Shown here: one piece after another, positions 10,090 through 61,700 of the stretch
How the letters are laid out: each line of letters begins with the position of its first letter
Numbering within the stretch: the first letter of the stretch is position 1
NCBI RefSeq assembly: GCF_006345805.1
Contig: NC_042999.1
Coordinates: 62,496,001-62,560,000, forward strand
Length of the DNA: 64,000 bases
Direction of reading: 5' to 3'
Origin: Octopus sinensis
Lineage: Eukaryota
Position numbers and translations under genes: made by a program
Notes under the pieces: model-generated
What the model was told of the DNA's origin: nothing
The model's input: only the letters and a program-made list of their open reading frames with translations
The model's database searches: none

Positions 10090-10389
10090 TAAAAATGGTA
10101 AGACAACAAAAGAATGAAAGAAACCTTGATATTATGTGAATAGAGGAATTTATCTGTAAATGTAATATGCAACAATTATTCGGTAGCCATAATAAAACTC
10201 TGAGTTTTGGATGCCGAGGTGGAAATCCATGCCGCCATCTCTTCAGTTATCCGGCCATCGGATAGATTTTTCATAGCTTTTTTTCCGATGGCCAGATAAC
10301 TGAAGAGATGGCGGCATGGATTTCCCCCTCGGCATCCGAAACTTGGAGTTTTATCATGGCTACCAAATAATTGTCACATATTACATTTA
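10090..10389. mobile_element. Fold-back element 1 (106-bp inverted arms plus left-side tail), Penelope-like architecture
   Basis: Arms 10157-10262 and 10284-10389 are reverse complements with scattered mismatches; lies in TA-rich sequence; tail boundary approximate. Confidence 0.8.
10291..10360 (+). ncRNA. Type I hammerhead ribozyme motif
   Basis: Stem I gataa/ttatc, core CTGAAGA 10300-10306, stem II GATG/CATC, GAAA 10338-10341, stem III ACT-tgg-AGT, cleavage triplet GTT 10348-10350. Confidence 0.72.
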
Positions 10390-11629
10390 TGTATGTATAT
10401 ATATACAAAATAATTTTTGTAAAATAGGAATTTATAATTTTATATATTATATCATATTAATACACGTGCACACACACACACTCATGTAATTATATATATA
10501 TAACTTTACATAATGTTCAATTGTGTACACATATCTACAGCATTGTTTGTAAAAATACTATTCTTTGCTTGTATGGGTCAGGTGAAATTTATTGAAACAG
10601 ATTTTCTGTGGCCAAATGCTATTCATTACCAACTTCCACCTGTCTCCAAGCAAAGTTGTATTTCTCGTAGTCCCTTCGATACAAACTGTACAAATACCAG
10701 AAGTGTTTGCAAACAAATGGCACATAATCTGTGACAGTGGCATTTGTTTAAAATTATCACATATCAATATAAAGACATATAAATTATATACATATATATG
10801 TGTTTATATATCATCATATGTGTATATAAACACATATACCTATATAATACACACACACACATACACATTTGTATATTTATGCATATGTATAATATGTGTG
10901 TATAAAACCCTTCAGTTTCAGTCTACTGGACCCTCTTACAAGAATATATATAATCTCCAAAGAAAAGCCAGTCATCATGCCAATCACTAACTCTTGAAAT
11001 CCTTAGGCCTTGGAGAGAGAAATGAAACCATTTTGTGGATTGAGTCTGTATTTCTGGATCATAAAGATATGATCTCATCTCCCTCCCTGTCACCAGATCA
11101 GAAAAATGTGTCTTTAATGGCTTCAAATGCTTCAAACAGATCAGATCAGATTATAGTACACTTTCTGATACCTAAAATTTTTCACCATCTTCTATAATGT
11201 ATTGTGACCATTATTCATTTGAGCCTTACAGATTGTGACTCATCAGTCTGCATAAACCTGTTTGTCTACTCACTAGCAATTTGTGTCAGTTGTCATAGTT
11301 GATGGTTTTTCTAGTGCATGGTTTTGGCTTCAATCTGGTTTCCTCCTTTTTAAAAATTTTTCATCCATCTATGCACATTGCTCTCCTCAATGAAATCATT
11401 TCCATAAACAACCTGCAGTCTTCTGTGGACGTCAGACATACCTTCTTCATCAAGAAATCATCAGCATCTTACTTCTGCTTTTATTTGCCTACAATGAAAA
11501 AAGAAGAGGAACAATAGTTACTCTACCAAGATGTGCAATTTGGAGGACTTATGCAGTTATAGAAAAGTTATACCACTTTAGGATTATTCTTGGGATAGCC
11601 CTTATGTCTGCACACACACATATATATAT

Positions 11630-11860
11630 TTCTTTACTACTCACAAGGGGTTAAACATAGAGGGGACGAACAAGGACAGACAAAGGGATTAAGTCGATTA
11701 CATCGCTCCCAGTGTGAAACTGGTACTTAATTTATCGACCCTGAAATGATGAAACGCAAATTCGACCTCAGCGGAATTTGAACTCAGAACGTAACGGCAG
11801 ACGAAATACAGCTACGTATTTCGCCCGGCATGCTAACGTTTCTGCTAGCTCGCCGCCTTA
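11630..11860 (-). mobile_element. SINE family A copy (alternative tail subfamily)
   Basis: Reverse complement of the 5200-5415 unit. Confidence 0.85.
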
Positions 11861-12908
11861 TATGTATATATATGCACACACATATATATATACATATAAA
11901 TCATACACACACACACATCAAATTCATCATCATCATCATCATCATCATTAAATGTCTGTTTTCCATTCTGACATGGGTTGGACACTTAGATAGAAATTGG
12001 CAAGCCAGAGCATTGCACTGAGCTCCAGTGTCTCCCTTGGCATGGTTTCTACAGCTCGATGCCCTTCCTAACACCATCAACTTTACTTAATATATTGTGT
12101 GCTTTTATGTGGTACCAGCACTAAGTGGAGGTGTGTATTGAGGGAGGTAGCTTTATGTAATGTGATGAGATGTTAAAGTATGACAGTATGTTGTGTCAGT
12201 AATACATGGTTACCTTAGCCATGTGTCACCTCTACAGGTGATAAAAAAAGAGAGATGGTAGTGAATAGACATCCCGGCATACCCACAAGCTTCATGAAGG
12301 TGAATATAAGATAAATGGAACAGAAGATTGAACTAGGCTAATAAGTAGATAGATTCACAAGAGAGTGAAAGGAAAGTGGCAAATGGATAAAAATGGGGAT
12401 AGAGAAATACAGTGTATGGGGAACATGGATAGACATTTGGTGAGTGGGGAATTTCAGTTTTCAGAGTAAAGGTAATAGAAGTGTGTCAAGGAGATGATAG
12501 GTGGCAGCACAAAAGTGGGGTGAAATATGTGCAGTTCTGCTTTCATATAATTACAGCAGCTAAGTGGTATATATGTGTGCGTGTTTGTATTGATATAGAA
12601 AGATAGATATATGCACAATATCCACAAGTGCATGCACACACATATAGCTGAAAATGTATATAACTGAATATGTATTTATGATAGTATGTATAAGTGCTAT
12701 GAATTGGTAGTTATGTATAAGCATCAGTGGAGAGTGGTTGATTTGCAAAACTTTTTAAAGCATTAACTGAGGTTGCCTGGTGTCAAGCTATATAGGTTTT
12801 TAAGGAAAACTTTTTCTTTGAATAACATTTGTATTGTGGAAGGGGCATAATTGTATGCATGGCAGACAGTCTTCCACAAAATTTTTTGTCAGCACATTTA
12901 GCTACAGA

Positions 12909-13132
12909 TATGAGGGGTTGCTGAAAAGTTCCTGGCTTTGGGTAAAAGAAAATACAGGGAGGATCAGTCAGTTATGATTTTATTCAACATATTCCCTTCT
13001 CAGATTCACACACACTTACTGCAGTGTTCCTTCAGTTTTTCTAAGCCCTGTAAAATTAACTCAGAAGGTTGGGTTTCCAACGAGGCCTTACACGATACCC
13101 TTAAAGCCAGAAACTTTTCAGCACTCCTTGTA
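12909..13132 (-). mobile_element. Mariner-derived MITE
   Basis: ~30 bp TIRs tatgaggggttgctgaaaagttcctggcttt / aaagccagaaacttttcagcactccttgta with TA ends; internal minus-strand GLEKLKEHCSKCV resembles a mariner transposase C-terminus. Confidence 0.8.
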
Positions 13133-13394
13133 TATTGACAAATTTGAATGACAGAAGCCATTTGTGTGTGTGTAAACGTATGTAAATCCTCCCATTGAAT
13201 CACATACTCATCTGAAACTTCTGGATCCGCTTCTCTGACCCAACAACTGCTCCAATCTTTCTCCACCTCCTCACCTGAAGAAAGATCATAACTTTGCCAC
13301 CTCTGAGTTAGTAGCTTTATAGCTCCCAGCCATACACAACCAGGCGCTCTTAAATGCACTTGTTAACAATGCAACAATTGTCCTTATATTTGTT

Positions 13395-13625
13395 TCTTTA
13401 TTATCCACAAGGGGCTAAACTTAGAGGGGACTAACAAGGACAGGCAAACGAATTAAGTCAATTACATCGACCCCAGTGCATAACTGGTACATAATTTATC
13501 GACCCCAAAAGGATGAAAGGCAAAGTCAACCTCGGCAGAATTTGAACTCAGAACGTAACAGCAGACGAAATACGGCTACACATTTTGCCCGGCATGCAAA
13601 CGGTTCTGCCAGCTCAACGCCTTAT
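13395..13625 (-). mobile_element. SINE family A copy
   Basis: Same unit as 11630-11860. Confidence 0.85.
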
Positions 13626-14020
13626 ATTATTTGTCCTTATATTAACAACACTGTAGCTTTAGTCATTGGAGAGCCATTCCATTTTTATCCTTCAGCTCAC
13701 CATAAATTTTTCTTCCACTTCACCCACAACAGCTTCTCATTTAATTTCCTTCCCCCTCTCTCTCTTTCTCTCACTTCCTCCTAGTTTTTTTTTTCCTCTC
13801 CTTCTACCTGTCTGCATACACATACTTGTTGTTTTGTGTTACCCATCAGTTACAGCCTCAAAGTTTACATCCTCAGACAATATAAAACTCTGCTGTCTTA
13901 ACCCTGTAGAGGACTCAGTCCAAAATGATGGATACTCTACTCCCCTGTGGCAGTTTCACCTTAATTTTTCTGTGGCTATTTCTAAATGATACTTTTTTGA
14001 ACCTGTCTACTCTTTAATAA

Positions 14021-14240
14021 CCCTTTAGCATTCAAACTGGCCATATCTGGTCTCAGTATTCTACTTGCTTTATGTTCAAACCAGCCAGATGCAACTTTAC
14101 ACACTTACCCTATAATGTCCTTCTAAAAATAAGCAATCACATCATGAAAATCTCAAAGATACAAAATAATGCATGATTAATTCAAAACAATATGAATAAA
14201 TAAGCATTGCATTTAACAAAATAATCTGAATGCTAAAGGG
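14021..14240. mobile_element. piggyBac-like MITE
   Basis: Perfect TIR ccctttagcattca / tgaatgctaaaggg with TAA/TTA flanks (degenerate TTAA); second inverted copy at about 38202-38936. Confidence 0.75.
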
Positions 14241-16481
14241 TTACTTTCAAATCTAGTAAAAAGAAAATTGTAATTTCATAAATTCTGCTCAGTCTATTCT
14301 TAGGACTTAAACTTTCTCCCTGTTGCTAATTATTAATTACAAAAGTTTTAATAACCAAAATTTAGACCCCAAATCTTCTTCTAAACCTCATTGTTTTGAT
14401 TGATTCTAATAACCTAAATCAACTCATCCTTTTATCTCCATGGAATTTTGAATTAGTACTACTTCAGTTGATAATTAAAGCTGTAAATGATATTTGTGTT
14501 CATTGGCCATTTTTCTTGTCATTCCTACATATTCATTTGGTAATATGTATGGTGTTAATACTTTGAGACTAATTTTTTTAACACAACCTTGGCTTTGATT
14601 TTGAAAAATAAAATTTAAAATATAGTCTTTTAAAATTATTATGATATTATTTTATTTTCAATATTCTTATTTTTAAAGATCCATTATTATTAAATGTTTC
14701 ATATAATTTCTGCCTTTTAATATAAAGAAATCATTTAAGACTTCAAATGAAAATATTCATATTCTATTACCATCTACATAGAGATCTCAAAGTGTTAATA
14801 TTGGCAAAGCTCTGGCACAATACTATGGGAAAATGGTAATGAAAGGCAGTAGTGGCTGAGATACTTAGCTCTATTTACAGCTTCCTGTAACTTGTATTTG
14901 CCATTTTTATAAAATGCTGCCTACAGCCATGGACCATCTTTGTTAAAATGTTTTTTAAAAAGTCAGCTGATCAGTTGTTCATCATTTTTTTTACATTTGT
15001 TGATCCACTGCTATCTTTCTTTCTGCTGCAATTTTTGTCCTTTCCTCATGGTCATCTTCCTTTTTCTTAGAAAACCCAACTTGATATTGAAGAATGTTTC
15101 ACAGAAAAAATTAATTTTACTTTACTAATAATATTTCTCACCCCTCTAAGAAACAAGCAAGTCAAATAGCCATATCTATAAAGGACGCAATTGGACATAC
15201 TTTTAGCAGCAGTTTTCTGTACTTTATGGTCAATCCTATTAAATATGGTAAACCCCAGAGTAGCCTACTACATCAGTTCAACCTAGATTTTCTAACTTGA
15301 ATTATTTCTGTTCAAACAATGTTTTTATGATATTGTAATTGAAAATATTTATGAAATTTACTTGATTTAGTTTTCGAAGCATAACTTGATAGCAACAGCA
15401 ATTCACAGTTAGGTATTGAATCCCCTGTAATCCACTTAAAATACATACACAAAACTAGTGAAGCAGTAAATAAATAATTTTGTAACCTTTCCATATTGCT
15501 AAAGGTTTCGAAAAGTATAATATATATATATGATATGGCTTTGCTTTAAAGTATTAGGTCCCCTTTTCAAAGACAAATTTTTATTTAAAGTAACATGAAC
15601 ACTAATATTTTAAAACTAGCAATTTCAGACAACATATTTAAATTCTTATATAGACACATAATATATGTTGACATAAATTGGTTGAAAATTACTTGCTGGA
15701 GCATTTTGTATCCATTAGCAGAAGTTAAATACACTAGTTTAACCAAATGAAGTATTTTCTTAAAATTTTCTTTAAGCAACCAAGACTTTTCTCTAGTCTT
15801 GCAACTTCTTTGGCCATGCTTAAGAAGTCTTTGATACCTAGGAAGTCCCTGCCCCTTTAGATTCTGCAACTAGCTCAGATATTTTTCGATGGTCAGTTAA
15901 GAGTGCTTTTTTTTTTTCTCATAATAGCTGAATTACCTTTAGTTTCTGTAAGCCATTTTTGATGTTTAAAAGTCACACCTCCAACAATACTTCATCTATT
16001 AGGATTTATTGAATCAGCTCCTCTTTCAAATTGATTTTGTGCCAAGTCAAAAAGAAATCCTTGAATTGACACAAATAGCAGCACCTTTACAGGAGTTAGC
16101 TTCATACTTTTATATTCTGAGTTCAAATCAAACTGGGGCTAATATTGCTTTTCATCTCTCCAAGCACAATATAAAAAACTAATCAATGATACAATGGAGT
16201 CAATTTAATAAATTACATTTCCATCCCCATAAGAATTAGCTTTTTTATCTTATCAATAGAAATCCTTATTGTTGTTATTAAAGAGGAGATGGATTGCAGA
16301 ATATGTAGATTCTGACATGAAATGACTTACAATAGTTTATTGCCCATTTTGAAAGAATGAAATTAGTTTTGTAGTAGACATTTCACATAAACCATACTCT
16401 AGTACAGGTTTATGGTACTTTCATAATGTAAATTTGTATAAAATATCATGTAGTAGTAGTAGTAGTAGCAGTATTAGTAGC

Positions 16482-16514
<33 letters not shown>

Positions 16515-17044: not shown

Positions 17045-17980
17045 AATAATAATGATGATTTCAAATTTTGGCACAAGGCCGGCAATTTGGGGGAGGAGAT
17101 ACATCAATTACATCAGCCCTAGTGTTCAACTATTACTTATTTTATCGATCCCAAAAAGATGAAAGCAAAGTCAACCTTAGCGGAATTTGAACTCAGAACA
17201 TAAAGCTGGGAAAAATGCTGATTAGTATTTTGTCCAGTATGTTAATGATTCTGCCAGCTTACTGCCTGGTGGTAATAATAATAATAATCCTTCCTACTAT
17301 GGGCACAAGGCCTGAAATTTATGGGGAGTGGGTAATTCAATCACATCAACCCCAGTACTTGACTGGTGCTAAATTTATTACCCCTGAAACAATGAAAGCA
17401 AACTCAACCTCGGCGGAATTTGAACTCAGAACGTAACAGCAGACAAAATACCTATTTCTTTACTACCCACAAGGGGCTAAACACAGAGGGGACAAACAAG
17501 GACAGACAAACGGATTAAGTCAATTACATCGACCCCAGTGCATAACTGGTACTTAATTTATCGATCCTGAAAGGATGAAAGGCAAAGTCGACCTCGGCGG
17601 AATTTGAACTCAGAACGTAAGAGCAGATGAAATGCGACTACACATTTCGCCCTGCGTGCTAACGATTCTGCCAGCTCGTTGCCTTAAACAGGTGAAATAC
17701 TGCTAAGCATTTTGCCCAGCTTGCTAATGATTCTGCCAGCTCACCACATTAATAATAATGATAATAATCTTTTCTACTGTAGACACAAGGCCTGAAATTT
17801 GGGGGTAGAGGACTAATCAGTTACATTGATCCCAGTGTTTCACTGGTACTTAATTTATTAACCCCAAAAGGATGAAAGGCAAAGTTGACCTCAGCAGAAT
17901 TTGAACTCAGAGCGTAGCAACAGGTAAAATACTGCTGAGCATTTTGACCAGCATGCTAACGATTCTACCAGCTTGCCACC

Positions 17981-18022
<42 letters not shown>

Positions 18023-19200
18023 TAATATGAGAGGTATAAAAAATAGCAAAGTACCAGGCCCTGACTATTAAATTACAGAGGCTATGGAAAGTGTGGGTAA
18101 AATGTATCCCAGTAGTTAATGGTGCATTGGGAACTATCCATAAAGATCTGAACAGATGGATAGAGGAAATAGGCATAAAACCCAGTTTAGCGCAGCTGTA
18201 GTAAACAGTGTTATTAGGGACAGCTAGGACACTTAGGAGGATTCTTGGCATCTAAGGCAACTTGTTGTAGCCTGATGTTAGGATTCTTTCTTTTTCTAAC
18301 AGTCTAATCTGTTGAATGTATATGATAATAATAGTAATAATGATGGTTTCAAATTTTTGTACAAGGCCAGCAGTTTTAGGGGAAAAGGTAAGATGATGTC
18401 ATCACCTTGACTGATACTTATTTTATCGATTCCAAAAAGATGAAAAGCAAATTCAACCTCTGCAGAATCTGAACTCAGAACAAAAAGACAGACAAAATGC
18501 CGCTAAACTTTTTGTTCGGCATGCTAACAATTCTGCCAACTCACTGCCTTAATAATAATAATAATAATAATAATATTAATAATAATAATAATAATAAAAA
18601 GATGGGCTACAGCAAATATTCTGCTTAATACCATAGATTTGCTTGTCACTTGTTTGACCTTAACCAGTTGAGCATGTCCCTTAGTGGTTGATATGTGCAT
18701 CTCTGATCGCGAGCAGAAGTAGTGGGGGAGCATCATAGCTATGTGTTGAGCGGGATTCTTTGGAGTTTGAATAATTCACCTCTGGAAACACAGGTGGTTC
18801 GTTCAACATCGTTAAACAACCCTTATTCAGGGACCTTTTGAGTAGGATGGGTTACTCAAGCAGGAGAAAATTCTAACTGGGCCCCACCTGCAAGGTCATT
18901 GCTGTTTATCGTGATATGAGATCACCATGTCACGCACATATAGTTGTGATGCATGTGCCTGGTGTACCCTTATCAGACGGGTAGTCATGATGGGTATACT
19001 GGGCTTCATATATTTTACTCCAGTATCACTTTGATGGCATGAACTGCTCTCTCACTCAATAATAATAATAATAGTTATAATAATGATAATCCTTTCTACT
19101 AAGGGGCACAAAGCCTGAAATTTTGGAGGAGGGATTAAGTTGATTACATCAACCCCAGTGTTTCACTGGTACTTAATTTGTCAACCCTGAAAGGATGACA
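17045..19200 (-). mobile_element. Cluster of about 6 minus-strand SINE family A copies with (AAT)n spacers and nested inserts
   Basis: Reverse complement of the units in 2070-5442. Confidence 0.88.
18022..18325 (+). mobile_element. 3' fragment of an RLE-type non-LTR retrotransposon (Dong/R4-like) in a (TAA)n tract
   Basis: Translates KIAKYQAL..LQRLWKV..CIPVVNGALGTIHKDLNRWIEEIGI..TVLLGTARTLRRIL, the typical C-terminus of restriction-like-endonuclease LINEs; flanked by TAA repeats. Confidence 0.75.
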
Positions 19201-20173: not shown

Positions 20174-20515
20174 AAACAATTGCAGCATGGAAGGTGTTTA
20201 TAAGCCATTTAAGAAACACACAAAATCCGTTAGATTCACTTCAACATTTAAATTTAATTTGTCAAAATATTTTCATCGCTTTGAGACCGCAATCTGTTCA
20301 CTGACAAAATTTCGTGCTGCATCTCTTTTGTCAGTGAACAGATTACGGTCTCAAAGCGACGAAAATATTTTGACAAATTAAATTTAAATGTTGAAGTGAA
20401 TCTAATGGATTTTGTGTGTTACTTAAATGGCTTATAAACACCTTCCATGCTGCAATTGTTTTCGTTCCAGCACACGATCTCAGACCAAGTCACTCGCTAT
20501 GCAAGTACATCTCCA
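20174..20515. mobile_element. Fold-back element 2 (136-bp inverted arms plus right-side tail) inserted in (TA)n
   Basis: Arms 20174-20309 and 20326-20461, 16-nt loop, only a few mismatches; ~54 nt unique tail followed by TA repeat. Confidence 0.85.
20327..20377 (+). ncRNA. Minimal hammerhead ribozyme motif with G3-C8 variant core (second copy on - strand in the left arm)
   Basis: Stem I tttgtca/tgacaaa, core GTGAACA 20334-20340, stem II ATTRC/GCGAY, GAAA 20361-20364, palindromic stem III AATATT. Confidence 0.62.
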
Positions 20516-22799
20516 TATATATATATGTATATTCTTTCTACATTGTTAACGTTTGAGATGAATTCTTTGACAGTATTTATTATAAACTAAAAATGCTTCA
20601 TGTAGATAAAAGATAACTATCAATGTAATAACCAATAATTCTCTATTTTCTGGAGGTAACAACCAAAACATAATTGTTATTTTAGGGAAGTTATACAATT
20701 TAAACATTATTAGTCTTAAATAATTAAAAGTTGTTTATTCGTAGAGAACCACTTTGGCATATGTTTGGGTTAACTACTGTTATCACTGGATATTATTTCA
20801 GTTGTAACTATGAATTCATTTTTAAATAAGTTGACTCACCTCTCTTAAGTCTATTTTCTCATAGTATAGTAAGCAGCACTCTGTACCAGAAGCTGTTGCA
20901 TAGTTAGTCAGTTTGTTCATTGTAGGAGCTAAGATTCTCCTGACTATCTTTAAAGTAGAGGGTTACATTTTTTAGTCCTTATTGGTAGCATAGTATGTTA
21001 CACAGTAATGTCTATTATGGATCACACAGGCTTACCATAGCTTGAATATTTACCCAATGACGAAGTTTGACATGAACTGGATATATTAATGATTTGCTAT
21101 TTGTTACTTTTTAGTACATTAAATCTGCAAGTTAATCATAAAAGATTAAATTAACTATGCAAGCTGATATTGCTTTGTACAAAAATTTGAAATCCAAAGA
21201 CCTCCCAAATCAAAAAGTTTTGAAGTGAGATGTGCTACAAATAGAAAATTCTAGAAAATGTTAGTAAAGTTCTCAGGTGATGTGTAACTGTTGTGTCACA
21301 CAGTAGGCTGCCAGTGTTGGGAATGACTTCTTCCATTCTGGGTTGGGCTTATCCAGCCTAAGTTGACTCCAGTTTATAGTCAGGTGCTACCATAGTAACA
21401 CCTTCAGATTGATAATCATGGAACAACTGAACATTCATCATAATTAACTGAATTATTTTAACATCAAATCTGAATTTCACCTCCACATATTTGACTTGCA
21501 TCATTACTTGTACATGTATGGGTACAAAATTATTTAGAACTTTTATAAATTCACTGTAAGTGGAACCTCAGTTTATGAATGCCTCTCATCACAAATAGGG
21601 TAACAAATGGTATATCAAGTAACGAACATAAAAGCTGACAACAACGGTTGGTGACAAGCTAGGATTATCAGCAGGAGAGTGTCAGTTGCTATCTAGCTAT
21701 CACTTAGAGCACATCCATGACCGAATTCACCATGCATTCTCTTGAATGGTAAAAAGAGTTTCAATTTGCTAACATTTTGGGTGACGAATGGCCTTCAGAA
21801 ACAAATTAAATTCATAAACCAAAGTTGCACTGTATTAAAACTAGCGTCACATTATATGTATTGTGAAATATCAGCAGATGATGCATGTAGGCTGAGGTCC
21901 CAGCCATAGATGTTCCATATGATAATTTCAAAATCTTCAAACATCTAAAATCAGAAACAGCCCTGATTCCAAATATTTCAGATAAAAATTTATCAGTCTG
22001 CATCAATTTCAGACATTTGCCAATGCAGAGAAGACCAAGTCTATTCAGTAACGAGAGGTCTCTGTACAAAAAAGCATTTGCTGGGCAACTCATACCAACT
22101 TACCAGTAAATACAAAAACAGTTCATCTCGTTCTGTATTTCCTTAATGTTACTCATTGCTCACAATGTGCATTTAACATGAGTTTCTTTTTACCCTTTCA
22201 TGTTGATGTATGCTTGAGAGCAGTAGAATATTTTTGATTATTGCTGTTGATTGAATCATTTCTCACCTAATTCAAACTTGTTAAAAATTTAGTAACATAT
22301 TTCAAAATGTTGATATTCTAAACTAATAATTGTGATGATGATATAATAAATGAAATTATATTTTATTACCATAAAAACAATAAAAGCCATTAAATATTTA
22401 TCACACACATGAAAGCATTGTGTGTATGTGAGTACTTAAACTCAATGTATTTCAACTTTCATTTTTTTTTTCTATATGTAAAAAGTCAAAGCAAGAGTAA
22501 TTTAGATTCTACAACAGAGCAAAACATAAATTGTGATTATTCATTTTCTATCAATTTTTGGAGAGTTAACTATGAAAATATATTTGTCATTCAATTAACA
22601 CTATTGCTAAAAAAATCTAATTAATCATTGTAGCTGAAGTTAAAATATCATATGATTATTGTAGCTAAGTTAAGGGGTTAAGTGAGAAATAGAACATTGG
22701 ACTTTTATTGTTTTTCATCCCTCTAATTCTAATTCCAAACCTTACTAGAGTTAGTATTGCTTTTCACCATCCTGGAATGGGTAAAATAAATTAGATCCA

Positions 22800-37400: not shown

Positions 37401-39929
37401 TCTTGCCATTCTCCTCCACGTTGTTCCAAACATCTTTCTTAAATCATCATCTCACCTGATTGGAGGTCTTCCGATCGGTCTCTTCCATTCATGCGGGTAC
37501 CACTTAGCTACTGCACGGGTCCAATCTCTTCAACAGCAGAGTCTTACCTGTAATGCTAATGCACGTGAAACTTGGGCCTTGACGAGGAGAAAAGAACAAC
37601 ATCTGTTTACGGCGCAGACAACCATGGAAAGGTCAATGTTAGGAATCTCACTAAGGGATCACATCCAGAATGAGGAGATCAGGGATAGAACTGGAGTGAA
37701 GGACATCATTGCTGAATATCACCACACAAAATACGATGGGCCAGTCATGTCACAAGGTTCACAGACACGATGCTAATACACTCATAAAGTCATGAATGAT
37801 TTCTTTTCTCAACCATGAAATGGATTTTTTTTCTACTATTCATGCTTTTCATATTTGCTTCCAATCAAAGTAGTCAAAGCTTTTAAAGTTTGATTCAAAC
37901 CTATAGGAGTGACATGTCTCTCTCTTTTGAGACATTCTGCAGCTGTGGAGGTTTTACTTTGATGAGAAATCTGTGTGTAACAGCTTTACTTCTTAATGTT
38001 TTAATGTTGTATTCTCTGCAAGATCAATGCCGTAAGGCCAAGTGACAGTGGGTTTGATTTTATTTTTACTTATGAGCAATTACAGTTAGCAAGTAATATG
38101 GTCCATGTTTGTTTTGCAGGAGTATGTTCACAATATGATAGTTTCTCCTTTGTAAGTCATTTTTATTGTGATTGACCAGTTTTACTTTATGCTGTTGGCA
38201 TTTAGCCTTTTAGCGTTCACATTATTTCATCAAGTGTAATAATTATTCATTCTTATTGTTTTAAATTAATCATACATTCTCTTGTAGCTTTGAAATTTTG
38301 ATAATGTGATTGTTTATTTTTAGAATGATATAGTAGGATAGGTGTGAGAGGTCAGATCTAGCCAGTTTTTGAACAGAAGCCAGGTATTATTTACATTTGA
38401 CAGATATTTGTCCTCATCTTCTTTGTTGTTAACATGTTTCGACTGATATACACTCCAGCCTTCATTGGGTGTCTTGGGGAAATTTCAAACCTGGGTTCAC
38501 ATTCCTAAGGTATTTTTTTATATTATTATTATTATTATTCAGGTCACTGCTTGGAATTGAACTCAGAATCTTGGGGTTAGTAGCCCACACTCTTAACCAC
38601 TACGCCCACGGGCATATGGCATATTGGTTATGAGCGCAGGTTACTAACCCCAAGATTCCGAGTTTGATTCCAGGCAGTGACCTGAATGATAATAATAATA
38701 ATAATAATAATAATATCGAAAAATACTTTAGGAATGAGAACCCAGGTTCGAAATTTCCCCAAGACACCTGAAGAAGGCCGGAGGGTATATCAGCCGAAAC
38801 GTTGTGTTAACAACAAACAAGATGACAAATATCCATCAAATGTAAATAATGTACATAATTCCTCATCTCTTAAATATAGAACAGAAAGCAGGTATATTTG
38901 AGCTGGATATAGCCAGTTTAAATGCCAAAGGATCAATTATTCACTTTCACACATTTAAGAGTGGTGAAACTCTGTTTAGATAGTCTCCAACAATTGCTGG
39001 CTGTCAATATACAATATTCTGATACTTATTTCCATTCATTACAGGGACGATAAGAGTTGTCTATTATTAATTCCTTTACATATGGAGTACATAGGCTCTT
39101 GTAGAATTTCTCCATAAAATTTTTCAAAATATAGATAATTATAAGTATCTTAATGGACACTATATATAATTACTCCAACTCATGAATTCCATTTCATTGA
39201 AGGGGAAAATTCTTCAGTTATTTATATATAAATAACTGAAGAATTTTTTAGCAATGTTCTTGGTTATGAAGATCCAAACTTTCTGATATTTGTGACATAA
39301 CAAGTTCACATAATTTACTATTCGCAACAAAAGAGTTGAAGCGAAGTAAGGTTTCTTGTGTCTTTTAGTAGTAAAGCTCATTACACCTATTGAAATCTGT
39401 TTAATAACAAAGGATATTATAAGCAATTTATCTTAATTATTGAAATGATGTATGTTTATATATTCTCACAATTTCCTTTTTCTTTTTTTTTTGTTATTTT
39501 AAATTACTTTTCAGCAGATTATAGTTCAAAAGATGGTCTCATGACTCGTCCCAGTGTCATGGTCACTTCCCCTGGATCACCGAGTGCCTCAGGAAAGCGG
39601 GTCCATTCACCGCAAATTACCGGAAAAATTCAAGTAAATTATCATAACATTTATTTTACAGATATCATTGTCATTGTATCATTGTACTTGTTAAAAATAT
39701 TTCTTTCTATCGTCTGTCATCATTTAATGTCCATTTTCCATGCCGGCATGGGTCATGGCCAATGCCCTTCCTGTTACCAACCCTCACCTGTTTCCAAGCA
39801 AGTTAGTATTTCCCCATTCAGGCATGTTTTCCATGAAAGACTGGAAATGAGTGGCATCAGTTGTATGATGGTGTTACTTGTTTGCAATCATCACATGATG
39901 TCAAAACAAGGGAACACAAAATACACACA

Positions 39930-39960
<31 letters not shown>

Positions 39961-42900
39961 CAACACACACACACACATGTTTCAGTTTCTGTTTATAAAA
40001 TCCATTCAGAAGGCTTTGGTCAGCCCAGAGTATATAGTAAAATACACTTACTGAAGGTACTGTGCAGTAAGATTGAACTGAAGACCATGTAGTCCAGAAG
40101 CAAACTTCTTAACCACACAGCGATACCTGCACCATGCTATTATTTTAAAGTTGATGGTTGAGAACAAGCCATAGATTTGTTTACAACAATAGAAATTGTG
40201 CAAAATCTCACCAACATTACATTTCAAATTTTCATGGAATCAGCTTGTCTCTTAAATTTGATATTAATAATAAATGTAAATGATGACAGAATACTTAAAG
40301 TAAGAAATTAAATCAATAATTTGCAGCATCTATACCTATATTCGTCTTCAAGTAGTGTTGTTGTCAGGTGAAGCAACTATAAATTCCTTTTAGCATGACA
40401 AACACAAAAGCTAAGTTCTGTTTTACCTGAACAGAAAATCAACTGAATTAAAAGGTACTATAGATATACTCTTTTTCACTCTTTTTACTTGTTTCAGTCA
40501 TTTTGACTGCAGTCATGCTGGAGTACCGCCTTTAGTTGAGCAAATCGACCCCAGGACTTATTATTTGTAAGCCTTGTACTTATTCTATCGGTCTCTTTTG
40601 CCGAACCACTAAGTTACGGGGACGTAAACAACCATCGGTTGTTAAGCGATGTTGGGGGGACAAACACAGACACACAAACATACATATATATATATACATA
40701 TATATACATACATATATATATATATATATATACGACACATATGTATATATATATACGACATATATATATATATACGACGGGCTTCTTTCAGTTTCCATCT
40801 ACCAAATGCACTCACAAGGCTTTGGCTGGCCCAAGGCTATAGTAGAAGACACTTGCCCAAGGTGCCACGCAGTGGGAATGAACCCAGAACCATGTGGTTG
40901 GTAAGCAAGCTACTTACCACACAGCCACTCCTGCGCCTATACTTGAAAAAATATTTTTGAAATTATATGCTGCACTGAATGGTAAAATAATTTTTTTTTT
41001 AAATAGACAAAAATAAAAATCTAATCTTTGTTTTTATCTATCATTTCTGTCATTTCAGATTCGAATGTGGTATGATGATAGTCGTTGTGAATTGTCAATT
41101 TGCATTGTCAGTGCCCTGGACCTACTTCCTTCAGCAGATGGCAAACTGCGCAACCCATACTGTAAGCTGTATTTACTTCCTGACAAAAGGTAAAAATTTT
41201 AATTATACTTTACCATCCATTATTGATCATAATTCCTTAATCCATTCAACTGTTTTACTGCGTAAATCAGGTATATTTATCTACTCAAAATCTCCTTGCC
41301 CTTAATCATTTAAAGCAGTTTTATATCCCAATCAATCTTTTATTGGGGAATGTCATATTTGAAAGTATTTTTTGTTGAGATATGTCAAGTTTATTGAGGC
41401 AATGTGACTTGCAGAAAATATCAATTCTATTTTTGATAGATGTGTAACATCATTACTGAAATCATCATCATCATCATCATCATTGTTTAACGTCCGTTTT
41501 CCATGCTAGCATGGGTTGGACGGTTTGACTGGGGTCTGGGAAGCCAGAAGGCTGCACCAGGCTCCAGTCTGATCTGGCAGTGTTTCTACAGCTGGATGCC
41601 CTTCCTAATGCCAACCACTCCGTGAGTGTAGTGGGTGCTTTTTACATGCCAGGCAAGGCTGGCAACGGCCACGATCAGTTGGTGCTTTTTACGTGCCACC
41701 AGCACGGAAGCCAGTCAAGGCGGCACTGGCATCGACCACGTTCGGATGGTGCTTTTTATGTGCCACCGGCACAGGGATCACAACTATAATTTCCATTGAT
41801 TTTTTATGTTGATGTACTTGACTTAATATCTATGAAATTTCATTTCATAATTAAAGAGTTAAACAACTATTTTCAAAATTTTTTTCTTCACTATAACATT
41901 ACTGTATTCATTGAAGAAGCTAAAATTTTTAAAGGACTATCGGAAGTTTCTTCAATCTAATTACATTACCAAGACTAGTGACTTAAAGTAAACAAATGAA
42001 ATATTTGTCAAGGTAAAGCACCATCTGTTTTCTATTCACTTTCTCAAGCACGTTGCTTTCACTGAATAGATACATAGCAGTGAGTACTCTTTCATCTTAT
42101 GTAATGCAACAAGATAAGTTTACTAGTGCTGATGCTACAACAAAATGCATTCAGTACTCTATAAAGTGGTTTGGCAAACAAGAAAAGGCATTGTATGGTC
42201 AATCAACACCCTTTAGTTTTATTGAGAACATGACAGCTTCTCTACGATGTTGCCACAATAAAATGCACTCAGTGAACTCTGTAAAGTGGATGGTAATAGG
42301 AAAGGCATCCAGCCATAGAAACTCAGAAGATGAAATGTATGAGCAAGATATTGCCTTCCAACCTGTCTTCAAAAGTTTTAATAAGAACTGTCTATGATGA
42401 CCTGTCCAGTTCATACCAGCATGGAAAGCAGATATAGCATGATAATAATGATGATGTATGTATGTGTATCATTTATATAGCCAGAAAGAGAGGCAGAGAC
42501 AGAGAGTTAGAGAGAAATATATAGATATGAAGTCTTATTTAGACATGCATATATTTGCATGCTCGTGAAAATTTTTAATTTATGGGTGTGTATGAATGAA
42601 TGTATGTATACACAAATATTTATACATACACTATCTATCTATCCGCTCAGTCGAAGTCGACTCTCAGTTACTCGAGCCAGTGTTCTCCAGCCAGTTCTAT
42701 CCTGAGTCGCTTCTTGCAGATTGGCTATGGCCATTTCCATGTCACTCTTGATGGTGTCAAGCCAGCAGGTTCTTGGTCGGCCTCTTCCTCTCTCTGTCTA
42801 TATATATATATATATCTACATACACACATGCAGATATATATACACACAGACATGCACAAAATACATGTGTGTATCATCATCTTTTAGCATCCATTTTCCA

Positions 42901-45900
42901 TGTTGGCATGATTTGAACAATTTGAGAGGATTCAACAGGTTTGGAGACGGCATCGTCCTCCAATGTCTACTTTGGCATGGTTCCTACAGCTGGATGCTTT
43001 TTCTAATGCCAAACACTTTACAAAGTGTTCTAGGTGTTCTTTTCATGGTGCCAGCACACTACATCTGATTCCACTGATGTCCAGTTTTTCTCTCAGAACA
43101 TTTGTACAATGTCTTTCTTGCACACTTACATTACACAGCAGAGCATGCTAGCTTTATTTCTTTCCAGTCTTCTCAAATCCTCTGCATTCCAAGCCCATGT
43201 GTCACCACCATGTAGTATTGCAGTTCTAATGTAGGTGCTATACAATCTGCTTTGAGGTAAAAGATCTCTGTTGCCAGCAGTGGTACAAGCTTCCTGAACT
43301 TTTTCCAAACTGGCTACTAGTACCTTGGGTACTATGCTTTCAAAACAAGCAGTTTCCCTGCTGATTACATCTCCGAAGTAACAAAAGCTATCAACTACTT
43401 CTATGAGAACTCCAGTCATATAAGTTAATCTATTTTTTGTGTGCTCCTAGTACATAATGCTTTGGTGCAACTCATTTATGAAGCTTAATTTCTCTGTTAG
43501 TCTGCCTGTAATTCCACTACATCTCTTGTGTGTCCATTGCTTATTTCAGGTACATCATATGGAGTTTACACCTACTCTTCATCTGTATATTAAGCAAAGT
43601 CATTTCCCTGAAGATATCAGGACCTTATCTTCTTTTCTACATACTAAAACCTTAACCTTTGCAAAGTGTACCTAGAAGCCACTCAATTCTAGGTTGAGAT
43701 TCTATGCCTAGAATTTCCTCCCTAATTCCCCTATAGATTCATCAGCTTGCATCCAGTATATTCTGAAGAAGGGTACCTGCTCTAAAAGGCATCCAGATGG
43801 AGAAATTATGCTAAAATTGAACATTGTCCTCCACTCTATCTAGAAGGACAGTAACTCCGAATAAGTACTGACTGAGATCATGATGACTTCTCCCAACTCA
43901 TGCTAGCAAGGAGGGTGAACAAAAATTGATGATGATACATATATACATTTGTTCATTTTATGTCCAGTTTTCCATGGACTAGATACATATGTATTATTGA
44001 GACAAAATTTTCACAGCCAGATGCTTTTCCTGTTACTAAACCTTACCTATTTTGCAAGTGAGTTTTCATTTCATCCATTTTTGAAACCATGGTGCAACCA
44101 GACAATTTGTTAACCTGGAAATGCTTTTTGACACTGTCTATGGCTTTGCTCATCACATAATGTAAGCATTCATGCACATACGCTTATATATATATAATGG
44201 ACTTTATACAGTTTCTATGTGTCAAATATTTTCACAGGGGTTTAGTCAGCCTGGAGCTAAAGAAAAAGACACTTGCCCAAGCTGCTGTGCATGTATATTT
44301 TCATTTATATTTATTATTTATTCAAATAATTTGCTTTTTGATTTGGACAGCTAACTTTATAGCAAGCCTTCTAATGAAATGTATGTATTAATCAATGTAT
44401 ATAACACAGCTTTAATATGCATGAAGGATACACGAGGTGAATTTTGAGAATGAAATTTATTGAAAATTTTACTTTATATAAGCTACCAAATTATATGTCT
44501 CTATCTTTATACATTGGCAGTGAGAAAACTAAGAGACGCACAAAAACAATTCCCAACACCAATGACCCAACGTGGAACCAAACATTTGTCTATGTTGCTG
44601 GTAAAGAATCACACTTCAAACAAAGATTATTAGAAATTACAGTATGGGATTATGACAGACTTGGTGCGAGTGAATTTCTTGGAGAAGTACGTTGGTCTTT
44701 TAGTCTACTATTTATTTTTTGTTTTACAATTAAAATAGGAATTGTTGGAAAGTTCTAGCAAATTACTACTGAAAGTTTAAAATTTTACCTAAATTCTAGA
44801 ATAAACAGAGTATTTTTGTCAGTTGTGATATATAAATCCTTTACCCTTTACTTACTTCAGTCATTGGACTGTGGCCATGCAGTAGCATCACCTTGATGGA
44901 TTTCCCCAGTACTTATTTTTAAAACTGGTACTTATTCTATTGGTCTCTTTTGCCAAACTTATGAGGATGTAAACAAGCCAACACCAGTTGTTAAGTAGTG
45001 GTAGTGGACAAATACATATATATGTATATATAAAAATTAGGAAAAAAACACCTTTTATCCATTCAAAATGAACAATTAAATTACACCATCTAGAAAATTA
45101 CATAAACTAGAAATATTAAAATTAAAATAACAATAATATACCGATGATTAAGTAAATTGCAAAATAATAATAAAAACGTATATATTTGGTGTAATTTAAT
45201 TGTTCATTTTGAATTGATAAAAGGTGTTTTTTTCTAATTTTTATATATATATAATATTTTGTGAAATTTGATTTAGTATTTCTAAATTGAATTTTTCCCT
45301 GTAAGTTAGGAATAATATTCCCTCATATAATTATTATATATATATGTATGTATGTATATATATGTATATACACATAGTCACACATGTGGGGCTTCCACAC
45401 AATTTCCATCTACCAAATTCACTCACAAGTCATACCAAAGCTATAATAGAAAACACTTGCCCAAGGTGCTTTGCAGTGGAAATGACCCTAATACCACATT
45501 GTGGCAAAGTGAGCTTCTTAAGCACATAATCATGTCTGTATAAACATTTGATATTATTTTAAATTTGTTGATAACATTTTAGGATAAACACATCAGTTGT
45601 TTTAAGTAAATGTACAAATGAATTTTTTTTAAAGATATTCTTTTTTCTTCAGGTAATAATTGATTTATCTCGAGCCAATTTTAAGGATGATCCTCTGTGG
45701 TATCCACTACGGCAGCAGGATGAATCTAATATTCAACTGCCCACATCTTCCTCACGCACAGTAAGTAAACAATTTTACTATACAATACTGGAAGTTACAG
45801 GAAAGAATATGATTGGACACATTACTGAAAAGATTACTTTCTCTTTATCCTCATATTTTGTGCCACTCATATCTTCATCATTTTTATCATTGTTATTATT

Positions 45901-57100: not shown

Positions 57101-58719
57101 ATCACCGCAAACATAGCCATCCTGAAGGGGGATCCCTTGTTGTTCCTGAGAAAGGAACACGACAGAGATCTCGGTCACCGGTTGAAGATATGAATCATGG
57201 ATCCTCTCGGACTACTCGATCTCCAGCCCGTCACCAAGTGCCTGAGACATTGTCAAGGTCATTATCTCCCCATAGTTCCAGGTTTGTTTGTGGCAACACA
57301 TAAAAAACAAATGGATAAGCTTTTAAATATATCTTACCTTGATAAGTTAATATCTATACATATATGACTTCCATTGCTGAGCTAAACTCTTTTAAAAATA
57401 TTTCAAACTTTTCTAAATGATAAAAATCTAGATAGAACTATTTCTTTATTTTATAACTTTAGATATGTAAAAAAAAATAGTTTTGTTTTGCAGTTCTAGT
57501 TAATAGCTTATCTCAATATAAAAATTTACTGCTAATTTAATGATCACTTATCATTTCTTTATTAACTTCTTAATTAGACATTTGATTATTTTTCATTTCT
57601 CTAAAATACATTTTAAAACCTTAATATGGAGATCTTTTATTTCCTATTGCATAAATTACATTTTGCAATAATAAATGGCTCTAACTTGCTCCATAGACAA
57701 AATCGTGGTATGTCCCCTATACGAGTGCTACCTACCACATCACGGTCTGCTGGAGGCACACCTTCAAGTACACCCTCTCCAAAGAAACGACAGTTACCTT
57801 CAATACCAATTGAAGCACAGATTGCCAGTAGAGATCGAGGTGAGTACATAACACAAGTTATATTTTGAATATACAATGTTTATAGTTTCTTAAGCTTTTT
57901 TTCGTATTCTCTCTCAATCATAGTGAATGGCATTGTTCACTTGCAAGCTCTTTTACTGAGCATCATACAACTAACTGCATGCTTTCTAACCTTGTATTTG
58001 AGTTAGAGGATTATTTAGTATGCATGCAGATAAATCCATCACATTTGCTACATAATTTGCTTTCAATTCAGCATAATAAAACCTCTCTCAAACATATTTC
58101 TTCAACCCCTATCACTCTCAATATAATGTGTACAGGTTATCAAGTAGACATTTTGCAATCGTTCAGCCCAACAAAATAACTAAACCTTACCATGTGCCTG
58201 CTATCAGCTTCATATAGTGCATTTCTTAGCTGGCCCTTATTTTCATGAAGCTCCTCAAAACTTTCTCTTTCTACAGATACCCATCCCAACTTTTAGAAAC
58301 ACATGAGCATGATTGTTGCCAGAGCAACAAGCTGGCCTCCGTGCCGATGACACATAAAAAACACCATCCAAGCATGATCATTACCTGTGTAGGCTTACTG
58401 GCACTTGTGCTGGTGGTACATGAAAAAACATTCAAGCGAGGTCATTGCCAGTGCCGCTGGACTGGCTCCTGTGCAGGTGGCACATAAAAAGCACCATTTG
58501 AGTGTGGCCATTGCCAGTACCGCCTGATTGGCCCTCGTGCCGGTGGCACGTAAAAATACCCACTACATTCTCGGAGTGGTTGGTGTTAGGAAGGGCATCC
58601 AGCTGTAGAAACTCTGCCAGATCAAGATTGGAGTCTGGTGCAGCCATCTGGTTTGCCAGACCTTAGTCAAATCGTCCGACCCATGCTAGCATGGAAAGCG
58701 GACGTTAAACGACGACGAC

Positions 58720-58755
<36 letters not shown>

Positions 58756-61700
58756 GACGATGATGACGACGACGGCGACAGCCTCTCAAATCTCTTAATC
58801 AATAGAAATAGTCGTAAGCAACCAATGCCTTTCCTCATTGTTGATCACTAATATGGCTTTTGTAGAGGTGCATCTGCCAGAAGGTTACTATTTGACATTC
58901 CACACCTGTAGCTTTCCTTCTTGAGATGTGTGACAATGCAATATCATTGCCCTTGATGATAGTAAAGATTTCAACCATGTCTTGTACAAGAACCTTTTAG
59001 TAAAGTGATTCCTTTATCTCTTGGATCAAATGCTTCCTGTCACATTTTACCATCAAAACCATCAATAAACTCTCTCTAAATTACATAATTTATAATCTAA
59101 ATGTCTCAAGCTTCAGCTATGTAATCCACATTGTCTCTTCAGTATCATTTTTCCTTGCAGAAATTAAATTTGTATCCTCTCCAAACTAACCTTTTCTCAT
59201 ATACTTTCTGCCCACCCACCCACCTCTCTCTCTTTCTCTCTCTCCCTCTCTCCTTCCCCTACTTTCATGATTTGATCTACCAGCTATAGATATGTAAAAC
59301 CTCTTTTGGTTTTTACCTATCAGTGTAATAGTAATTTCATGTTACCTAAAATTTTGTCATTCCATCGTTTGTATAACAATAAAAATTTTTTAAATAGCAA
59401 TATTGTAGCAAATGTTTTTAAAGAAATTAAAATTTGTTGATTTTTTTTTTTAGATTTTTGAAGCTTTTAAATGTATAAAATCTAGTATGTTTCTTAGTTA
59501 TATTTCTTTCATTTATTTTTAGTAACACAAGATTTAGAGGAACGTGCTAGACAAATGAAACTAAAAATGAAAATAAATGCTCAACATAGGCATGGAACTG
59601 CCAATCACGGTGCTCCATCTTCAGATAGTGAAATTGCACATCATCATCATCGTAGTCGGTTGCGGGATGGAGATTACAGACATGATCGTTACGACATTCA
59701 TGGTTATCATAGCCGTGGCCGAGATTTAGAAAGAGGACACAGATCTAGGAGAAGAAAAGGTGAGACCTGATTGTTTTTGTATTTAAAACAGCTTTCTAAA
59801 TAAGAAGGGTCAAAGTATTTATTTGATACATTATTTACATTTAACAGATATTTGCCCTCATCTTGTTTGTTGTTAACACGTTTTGACTGATATACCCATC
59901 AAATGTAAATAATGTACATAATTCCTCATCTCTTAAATATAGAACTGTAATTATTTGATCTTCACTTTAGCTTAATTTGGCAGAATCGTTAGCATGCCAG
60001 ACAAAATGCTTGGCAGCATGTCATTCATCTTCATGTTCTGAGTTCAAATTCCACCAAGGTCAACTTTACCTTTCATCCTTGTGGGGTTGTTAAAATAAAT
60101 ATCAATGGAACGCTGGGGCATTGTATTCAACTTGCCCTCCCCTAAAATTAGTGGCTTTGTGCCAAAATTTGAAACTATTATTAGTTTATTTGTCAGAGAT
60201 TTTTCATCACACATTCTGTGACCTCTTCAGGTAGGACAAGAAGAGTTACATGGGACAGAGAATCACAGGAGAGATCTCAGAATCTGTGACAAAAGAACAA
60301 TTACAAATAAACTAATAATAATAATAATGATAAATGGTAATGGTTTTTTGCCACTATAACATGGCTGCTCCATAAAGAACCATGTTACTACATTTTAACC
60401 CCAGGAAAACATATTTTCCAGCTGCTTAACAATATACAACCTGTGTCCAGTATATTGTAAAGTATTTTAGAACTAGCTAATAATAATAAAGCTAAAGTGA
60501 ATGGTAAAAGTACTTTTAATAAATCATCTGAGAATTAGATTTTATTTTTGAATAACTGTTGGCAAAAAATAGGGCAATTTCAACCATTACAGATTAGGGT
60601 ACGAAGACCAGTGCACAAGAAAACCCCTACATGATCACTTGACCTGCATGAAATAGCAGCCAAATCTACCTCACATAACACACTGCTGTCTTGAAAAAGG
60701 AGAATATATTGAATAATATAAACTCCAATATTGAAACAGACAGGATCATCATGATTGGAATGCTTTTCATCATAGGTCTATTTGATCAGCATTGACCTGA
60801 GGCTAAACATAAACAATTAAGGAGGTTTTATAGCTAATTCTAAATGGTAAGCCTTTTAGAACTTAACAAAATAAATAAAAAGATATTATCCAGCTGAGAT
60901 ATCGGTAATGATGTTGGTTATCATTTTACAAATAAAAGCAGTGTGTGCAGGAAGAAAATATATATAGTTATGTTTGCATAACCTTCTCTGTTAGACATAC
61001 CTAAATAGTCAAATTATTATGTTTAGGTGTGAATAAACTGTTAGGTTTCAAAACAGACACTAAACAGGTGTATGTTCACTAGCTACGAGATCAAATAAAG
61101 ACAAACATTCCATTTAGGACCTTCATCATGGAAGATATGTTGGTTATAAAACTACAGTAATTCATCTATTAAACTTAATCTTCTTGAATCTAATCTATTT
61201 TATCTGAGATTTTTTCCTACAGTTATTGTTCTCTACTGCATCTTAGCTTTTTATGTGTTGTTTATAAAGTTATTGTGTCATTAGAAAAGTGCATTTGTAA
61301 TACAGTATAACCATAAGCAGTGATGTTGTTTGCTAATGTGGTAGCCTTTGTTACCTATCAAGTCATTTTGAAAAGCAAAATTCTACTTTGTATTTTTGTA
61401 TCTTTCTATAATGCAGAATTCAGTCCTGATGTGTCTGATGACAATCTGCCCAGTGATGCTTCAGAAACTAGTGATATGTCGGAGGTGTCAAAAGTCAGCA
61501 CCATCAGTATGCGATCAACACAATCTGAACGACCTCATAGGAAATTTAGGTAAGTGTTTAAAATAGGGAACTATTGGTCAATGAAATAACACTTCAAATT
61601 CTGATGCGAGCATTACTATGTATATCAGTTTACTTAACTGAAATGCCTTCCGTTCTCTGCATTCAATCTTTCAGTTATGTTAGGTGGAATTAATAATTGC

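What the first reader, a model, noticed from the sequence alone, without database searches (positions are those of the whole stretch)
10090..60320. A class of non-coding fold-back elements, each built around a minimal hammerhead ribozyme (Penelope-like architecture)
Seen: five elements (10090-10389, 20174-20515, 38386-38882, 45025-45335, 60176-60320) plus a collapsed sixth copy (59829-59945) share little or no primary sequence but the same design. Each has a head-to-head inverted duplication, a type I hammerhead topology (stem I, CUGANGA-like core, stem II, GAAA, very short or palindromic stem III) reading outward from the centre, and insertion in AT-rich or microsatellite DNA; four also have an unpaired 30-85 nt tail on one side. 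Established: Penelope-like elements carry minimal hammerheads in their pseudo-LTRs, often insert with an inverted pLTR copy and a 3' tail, and minimal hammerheads with palindromic helix III can act as dimers. Inference: these are several families of tiny non-autonomous ribozyme-processed retroelements mobilised by PLE RT/GIY-YIG machinery, at about one per 11-13 kb here. They would probably be mis-annotated as MITEs.
Basis: partly seen in the sequence, partly recalled or inferred. Interest (0 to 1): 0.9.

Follow-up and report, generated by a model that had tools for sequence, protein, structure and literature searches.

The report
Penelope retroelement ends, one flipped hammerhead
These hairpin-shaped repeats are copies from five high-copy repeat families, likely ends of Penelope-type jumping genes that folded back during insertion, and one family carries a predicted self-cutting RNA whose key core base pair is flipped (G3-C8), a form I found in print only as a lab mutant; cutting is untested.

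Summary
The fold-backs are real but are not a new class. Each belongs to a dispersed family of an estimated few thousand to ~14,000 copies. The inverted arm is optional (6 of 14 unselected insertions), variable in length and lacks the tail of the other arm; 8-15 bp target duplications enclose both arms (E2, E3). This is the published Penelope-like (PLE) insertion pattern, not a MITE. All five families carry a type I hammerhead motif, but in the window only three arms keep the fold (E1, E2, E3); E4's copy starts downstream of it and E5 and the sixth copy are broken. E1 is the 3' end of a decayed Hydra-type RT/GIY-YIG element; E3 has a tRNA-like head; no parent was found for E2, E3, E5. Copies span the cut site and 5' ends do not pile up there, so 'ribozyme-processed' is unsupported. 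The one surprise: E2's core has C3-G8 swapped to G3-C8 (98 of 100 listed of 1,112 exact matches). I found this only as an engineered, partly active mutant; one key paper was unreadable. An unchecked scan note reports such a swap on other DNA. Window density is ~5x the genome sample.

The parts
10097..10264 (-). E1 tailed arm: 3' end (pLTR plus ~50-nt tail) of a Hydra-type PLE; hammerhead core 10246-10240 with G12 changed to A at 10208
10266..10389 (+). E1 tail-less inverted arm with intact type I hammerhead fold (core from 10300; predicted cut 10350/10351)
20174..20325 (-). E2 tail-less arm; G3-C8 hammerhead fold intact (core 20301-20295; A-U in place of G10.1-C11.1)
20326..20517 (+). E2 tailed arm; G3 at 20334, C8 at 20339; stem II damaged; ~60-nt tail from about 20462
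38386..38606 (-). E3 tail-less arm, core damaged
38610..38682 (+). E3 tRNA-like head with A and B box (decayed in this copy)
   Evidence: boxes in 14 of 19 heads; relaxed ARAGORN call on 4 of 19 heads against 0.05 in shuffles
38683..38882 (+). E3 body: (AAT)n, intact minimal hammerhead (core 38768-38774, palindromic stem III, predicted cut 38803/38804), ~27-nt tail
45016..45190 (-). E4 tail-less arm; begins 3' of the family's cut site, no hammerhead
45187..45328 (+). E4 tailed arm (~75-nt tail), no hammerhead
59827..59947 (.). Collapsed E3 fold-back without core, inserted into the minus arm of E5
59948..59969 (-). Displaced piece of the E5 minus arm
60181..60230 (-). E5 arm: canonical core 60230-60224 but 5' strand of stem I lost at the inversion junction
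60233..60333 (+). E5 arm, decayed hammerhead

Best explanation
The five fold-backs are single insertions from five high-copy repeat families, likely 5'-truncated, 5'-inverted 3' ends of Penelope-like retroelements and their non-coding parasites, and family E2 carries a predicted hammerhead ribozyme whose C3-G8 core pair is swapped to G3-C8. Shown here: optional inverted arm, one tailed and one tail-less arm, variable target duplications around the whole structure in E2 and E3, family-level hammerhead motifs, RT plus endonuclease upstream of E1. Inferred from published PLE biochemistry: a PLE RT/GIY-YIG protein nicks both strands of AT-rich DNA and starts reverse transcription at two internal sites of an uncut RNA; priming from both nicks, one at each start site, would give two opposed cDNAs, hence a head-to-head copy with a tail on one side. 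The fold-back is then a by-product, and RNA read through it is predicted to be a long helix with the ribozyme buried. The hammerhead would matter only in the source transcript, probably as a slow or protein-assisted cutter or as a folded handle. The reciprocal double change in E2 suggests the 3-8 pair was kept by selection in its source element.
For: Two 3' ends per family. One long plus one short end in E2 32 of 36, E4 30 of 34, E1 7 of 11, E3 20 of 36 distinct fold-back junctions. Duplications of 8-15 bp in 14 of 22 E2 and 9 of 30 E3 copies with non-microsatellite right flanks, against 9% and 2.5% in swapped-flank controls. (TA)n/(TAA)n right flank in 37 of 59 E2 and 43 of 49 E4 tailed copies. 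E1: RT and endonuclease lie about 0.7-0.95 kb upstream of the hammerhead on the same strand in L237/L293, L247/L291, L252/L294, L230, L239; 23 relatives of 629-815 aa at 36-44% identity carry DKT (23), YxDD (23), RWK (21), CxCx4-6C (18), the Hydra marks of PMC8557442 section 11. Genome holds 5,029 GIY-YIG candidates and open ~780-aa RT+GIY-YIG frames. E2: 1,112 exact 35-mers with positions 3 and 8 left free for C or G; of the 100 listed 98 G3-C8, 2 G3-G8, 0 with C3; no variant of 5% or more at these two places in 4 runs of 4 organism labels; predicted fold is the hammerhead topology. Literature: PMC8557442 (inversion, tail, microsatellite bias; passages); PMC11167929 (both strands cut, two RT starts, cutting not needed in vitro, C3G/G8C partly rescues; parts 1-2 of 4).
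Against: No coding parent found for E2, E3, E5; E4's 1.7 kb upstream has no PLE protein match and its apparent link to an open Neptune-like copy failed. E5 fold-backs did not show the long/short rule (0 of 12; end classes uncertain in this old family). E4 showed no target duplication in 6 testable copies; 21 of 30 E3 copies had none of 8 bp or more. E3 does not prefer (TA)n (1 of 31). Rfam recognises none of the motifs; fold energies are not beyond shuffles (z +0.7 to -1.2). Core conservation over the rest is weak and biased by how copies were picked (3 of 52 against 205 of 1,313 columns, p 0.03); 9 of 35 E5 copies have U3-G8. No cleavage was measured.
Confidence: 0.85

Rival explanations
1. 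One reading: dedicated tiny fold-back elements whose RNA is released by their own hammerheads (acting as dimers) and re-inserted as a unit.
For: All five families carry a hammerhead motif; E2, E3 and E5 have short, fairly fixed 5' limits in the copies seen; one E2 fold-back junction is shared by 10 of 30 unselected pattern hits.
Against: Inversion is optional and junctions differ per copy; the shared junction sits inside a larger ~2-kb repeat, so it moved as cargo; only one arm is sense on a strand and the core is predicted to be fully paired in the hairpin; 0 of 18 unselected 5' ends at the cut site; cofolding two E2 motifs did not give the stem III duplex.
Confidence: 0.06
2. E2's G3-C8 core is a dead ribozyme: two chance changes in one source copy that amplified because cutting is not needed for transposition.
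For: Hammerhead mutants did not reduce insertion in vitro and the double swap only partly rescues (PMC11167929); 8 of 9 Xenopus retrozyme dimers did not cut in vitro (bioRxiv 2026.07.22.740005); the family descends from few sources, so 1,112 copies are not independent events.
Against: The two changes are exactly reciprocal while the other core bases, G10.1-C11.1, a 7-bp stem I, 5-bp stem II and palindromic stem III are all kept; frequent subfamily variants inside the motif fall in loop II or keep a wobble pair.
Confidence: 0.3
3. MITEs or other DNA-transposon derivatives with long terminal inverted repeats.
For: Long near-perfect inverted arms (up to 136 nt at 97%).
Against: Arms absent in many copies, variable, asymmetric; target duplications 8-15 bp, not fixed; E1 continues into an RT frame.
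Confidence: 0.02
4. E3 is an ordinary LINE-dependent tRNA SINE that merely picked up a hammerhead-bearing piece.
For: tRNA-like head with A/B boxes; no PLE partner found; no (TA)n bias.
Against: Ends at two discrete points 25-27 nt apart without a poly(A) or repeat tail, and 4 of 4 unselected insertions are inverted, tailed arm plus short arm.
Confidence: 0.12

Closest known systems
Minimal hammerheads in PLE pseudo-LTRs (Cervera and de la Pena 2014, PMC4209133; parts 1-2 of 4 read)
   Same: Type I, short or palindromic stem III, extra base after A9, many families per genome, opposite-strand pairs 100-700 bp apart, natural U3-A8 variant (also present here in L211, L214, L218).
   Different: G3-C8 is not among the variants in the text read; figures and supplements were not seen.
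Hydra clade of C-terminal EN+ PLEs (Craig et al. 2021, PMC8557442; passages and section 11 read)
   Same: E1's parent: RT then endonuclease with CxCx5C linker and CxxC before the conserved E; hammerhead; inverted 5' copy and tail; (TA)n flanks.
   Different: All E1-parent copies seen are broken; no tree was built, so clade membership rests on motifs.
Poseidon element of Anolis (Frangieh et al. 2024, PMC11167929; parts 1-2 of 4 read)
   Same: Two RT start sites give the optional tail; engineered C3G/G8C partly restores cutting.
   Different: There the swap is a lab mutant; here it is the fixed state of a family. Tails here are 25-75 nt.
Schistosoma Sm-alpha/Sj-alpha SINE-like hammerhead elements (review PMC6765202, passages)
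   Same: E3 joins a Pol III-type head to a type I hammerhead.
   Different: Those occur in tandem and cut in vitro; E3 copies seen are dispersed, minimal-stem III, with PLE-type inversion and tail.
Non-LTR retrozymes (PMC7229834 passages; bioRxiv 2026.07.22.740005 parts 1-3 of 5)
   Same: Short non-coding type I hammerhead elements proposed to use PLE proteins.
   Different: Defined as head-to-tail tandem repeats making circular RNA; copies here are monomers or head-to-head.

Membership tests
Penelope-like elements (EN+) | RT plus GIY-YIG frame upstream of the terminal repeat, same strand | tested here: met
   E1 only
Penelope-like elements (EN+) | Coding parent or partner for E2, E3, E4, E5 | tested here: inconclusive
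   None found in fetched loci; E4 body ~79% like 3' repeats of one Neptune-like family, tail link rejected, 1.7 kb upstream non-coding; only 150 of 5,029 GIY-YIG candidates were scored
Penelope-like elements (EN+) | Optional 3' tail (two discrete 3' ends) | tested here: met
   (clear in E1-E4, weak in E5)
Penelope-like elements (EN+) | Variable 5' truncation with optional inverted copy | tested here: met
Penelope-like elements (EN+) | Sense-strand type I hammerhead motif near the 3' end | tested here: met
   All five families; only 3 window arms intact
Hydra clade (E1 parent) | CxCx5C linker and CxxC before conserved E | tested here: met
   Read in L235, L247, L252, L257
Hydra clade (E1 parent) | RWK and DKT motifs | tested here: inconclusive
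   In 21 and 23 of 23 relatives; not read in the host's broken copies
Hydra clade (E1 parent) | Placement in an RT tree | not tested
   No named reference set at hand
Hammerhead ribozyme (E2) | Three stems around the core, paired positions 3 and 8, G12 A13 A14, A15.1-U16.1, H17 | tested here: met
   pair is G3-C8
Hammerhead ribozyme (E2) | Consensus C3 and G8 | tested here: not met
   0 of 100 listed matches have C3
Hammerhead ribozyme | Match to an Rfam hammerhead model | tested here: not met
   canonical-core E1 and E3 are missed too, so the test is insensitive here
Hammerhead ribozyme | Self-cleavage | not testable with these tools
   Only contigs were available
tRNA-derived SINE (E3) | tRNA-like head with A and B box | tested here: met
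   14 of 19 each; relaxed ARAGORN 4 of 19 against 0.05; default ARAGORN and Rfam miss the window copy
tRNA-derived SINE (E3) | LINE-type 3' end (poly(A) or short-repeat tail) | tested here: not met
   Two fixed 3' ends instead
MITE | Symmetric terminal inverted repeats in all copies and fixed target duplication | tested here: not met
Non-LTR retrozyme | Head-to-tail tandem hammerhead repeats | tested here: not met
   Copies seen are monomers or head-to-head; tandem E2 units occur only inside a larger repeat

The most novel reading that the evidence does not exclude
E2 is a ~210-nt protein-free parasite of Penelope-like elements, thousands of copies strong and shared by several related species, that runs on a working natural G3-C8 hammerhead, not yet described, with E5 as its older C3-G8 sister; together with tRNA-headed E3 it shows that Penelope proteins drive their own SINE-like families.
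Probability: 0.35. Interest if true: 0.62.

Novelty: new variant of a known kind. Interest (0 to 1): 0.45.

Why it matters
Why PLEs keep hammerheads is open: cutting was dispensable for insertion in vitro. A family that swapped the 3-8 pair yet kept every other feature is a natural test of whether selection acts on cutting or on the fold, and G8 supplies the general acid, so a natural C8 is of interest to ribozyme chemists. Standard descriptors and Rfam miss it, so similar families may be overlooked elsewhere. For annotation, these hairpins should be filed as PLE ends, not MITEs or miRNA precursors; if transcribed they would be a large source of long double-stranded RNA. The architecture itself is already known.

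Tried and rejected
Rfam: no hammerhead or tRNA hit, only sub-threshold miRNA-type matches to hairpins and (TA)n. E4 linked to the open Neptune-like copy L214: rejected, the E4-like tail is missing after the other copies and L218 shows the element ending before it. Single RT or endonuclease fragments near E2, E3, E5 copies (L003, L083, L084, L086, L138, L213, L220, L228, L288) were not repeated across copies and were treated as chance neighbours. One E4 copy (L169) follows a Hydra-type endonuclease end; single case, not used. Pile-up of 5' ends at the cut site: none. Cofolding two E2 motifs gave no stem III duplex in the best structure; weak test. E5 pattern with free positions 3 and 8 gave only 3 exact matches, all C3-G8. 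E2-E5 kinship beyond the hammerhead: borderline (14 of 500 shuffles as good). Pfam does not recognise the E1-parent protein or its relatives; the Atlas lead was GIY-YIG/HTH_animal clusters at 0.93-0.96. Expression: no RNA holder listed on record, contigs only. Host tRNA source of the E3 head was not identified. Locus L081 was mis-cut and left out. Literature for natural G3-C8: searches and passages of PMC3088659, PMC6155905, PMC3884650 found only U3-A8 as natural and G3-C8 as engineered; Lunse et al. 2017 (variants in PLEs), Hammann et al. 2012 and Arkhipova et al. 2017 were not held, and no supplements were read, so a prior report is not excluded. Whether E3 is one of the long-known octopus tRNA SINEs (names recalled) could not be checked (one search found nothing).


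Full report
Setting. The window lies at G000:C3:62496001-62560000 of a 2.72-Gb AT-rich animal genome. I guess a cephalopod from recalled repeat content; this was not tested. I call the elements E1 (10.1 kb), E2 (20.2 kb), E3 (38.4 kb), E4 (45.0 kb), E5 (60.2 kb).

Observation. The inverted duplications are present. Each arm belongs to a dispersed family: 2419, 2678, 2209, 1940 and 261 first-look candidates for E1-E5, of which 40 each were scored and up to 30 fetched. In 80 evenly placed 10-kb blocks (799,900 bases; two adjoin the window) the five families gave 14 insertions, 6 with both orientations: one per 57 kb (34-105 kb), so the window's six are about five times denser (the window was chosen after the fact). 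Rough genome estimates are 3,000-14,000 copies per family, each from 1-4 hits.

Hammerheads. A strict descriptor found only E3 in the window, against 0.05 per shuffle. A relaxed one added E1's plus arm and E2's minus arm, and three weak hits. At family level all five carry a type I motif: E1 canonical core, long stem II, near-palindromic stem III; E3 canonical, extra base after A9, palindromic stem III; E5 canonical, very short stem III; E4 canonical with a 13-bp stem II and long loop, found only after following two copies that reached further 5'; E2 with core GUGAACA. The window's E4 starts 3' of the cut site and has no ribozyme; E5 and the sixth copy (an E3 remnant nested in E5) are broken. 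Rfam detects none of them and their fold energies are unremarkable, although the predicted folds of E2's minus arm and of E3 are the hammerhead topology.

Insertion pattern. Every family shows two 3' ends: E2 211 and about 149-155, E4 406 and 329-334, E1 399 and 348, E3 287 and 254-262, E5 about 201-210 and 170. In fold-backs one arm has the long end and the other the short end in 32 of 36 (E2), 30 of 34 (E4), 7 of 11 (E1), 20 of 36 (E3) and 0 of 12 (E5) distinct junctions; most others had one long end and one unclassed end. 5' ends vary. Duplications of 8-15 bp enclose both arms in 14 of 22 E2 and 9 of 30 E3 testable copies (controls 9% and 2.5%), 0 of 6 in E4; most E2 and E4 copies abut (TA)n or (TAA)n. 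This matches the PLE pattern described in PMC8557442 and the two RT start sites of PMC11167929, and excludes MITEs.

Parents. Walking 5' from E1 led through about 0.8 kb of non-coding DNA into an endonuclease and RT frame; its 23 relatives carry the Hydra marks. E1 is therefore a truncation of a coding element. E4 extends at least 1.7 kb without a protein match; its body is about 79% like repeats behind the stop of one Neptune-like family, but a link to the open copy L214 failed. E3 begins with a tRNA-like head. E2 never extended more than about 63 nt 5' of its cut site in the copies seen; E5 about 90-130 nt. No partner was found for E2, E3, E5, but only 150 of 5,029 GIY-YIG candidates were scored; open ~780-aa RT+GIY-YIG frames exist.

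Role of the ribozyme. Many copies keep sequence on both sides of the cut site, and 0 of 18 unselected arms start within 3 nt of it (one search agrees), so the template was uncut or rejoined RNA (inference). On any strand only one arm is sense, and the fold-back RNA is predicted to pair the core almost completely. The fold-backs are thus unlikely to be ribozyme-processed units. Published work found cutting protein-assisted and dispensable for insertion in vitro.

The G3-C8 family. With positions 3 and 8 free for C or G, a 35-letter pattern has 1,112 exact matches (0 for the reversed control); 98 of the 100 listed are G3-C8, 2 G3-G8. An alignment gave 79 of 81 (selected copies), the one unselected copy agrees, and contigs of four runs with four organism labels show no variant of 5% or more at either place. 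Ten of 30 fetched matches are one junction carried by a larger repeat, so the count overstates independent insertions. E5 has a similar motif with C3-G8, a likely sister, though similarity outside the motif is borderline. C3-G8 is a known tertiary pair; U3-A8 is the natural variant in PMC3088659 and PMC4209133; G3-C8 appeared only as an engineered, partly active mutant. Lunse et al. 2017 could not be read and no supplements were seen. An unchecked scan note describes such a swap in a protist element. The swap arose once in a source element, so the copies are not independent proof of selection; a pooled test of core conservation was weak and biased.

Verdict. New variant of a known kind; interest 0.45.

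Noticed in passing
L260:813-2870 (also L262, L263, L277-L280, L282, L283, L287, L299-L301): A dispersed ~2.06-kb repeat, 92-98% alike, carries one E2 fold-back and an E1 tail piece as cargo; its left end resembles Helentron/HINE elements (label recalled, not tested).
   Followed up: partly
L211, L214, L218 (e.g. L214:1174-4874): Young Neptune-like PLE with an upstream 479-aa frame overlapping an open ~780-aa RT+GIY-YIG frame and a U3-A8 hammerhead in its terminal repeat; many copies.
   Followed up: partly
L033, L050, L098, L135, L163, L183, L212, L216, L228, L240, L247, L295, L347, L366, L381: At least ten further type I hammerhead families with palindromic stem III, several also as fold-backs.
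   Followed up: no
E2 5' end (L271): The first ~18 nt resemble the reverse complement of the short 3' end, as if the source element froze an old inversion.
   Followed up: partly
window 59827-60333: Nested site: E3 remnant and another repeat (about 59970-60175) both sit inside the minus arm of E5.
   Followed up: partly
window 3245-5419, 11623-13629, 17453-18600: Clusters of a repeat in both orientations, with a 286-bp tandem at 3245-3866; no hammerhead found there.
   Followed up: no
window 39394-40089: 232-codon open stretch whose later part looks like an exon; no Pfam hit.
   Followed up: no
L220, L221, L223, L225, L229: A second Neptune-like family has two ~280-bp tandem repeats behind its stop, about 79% like the E4 body, with no hammerhead detected.
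   Followed up: partly
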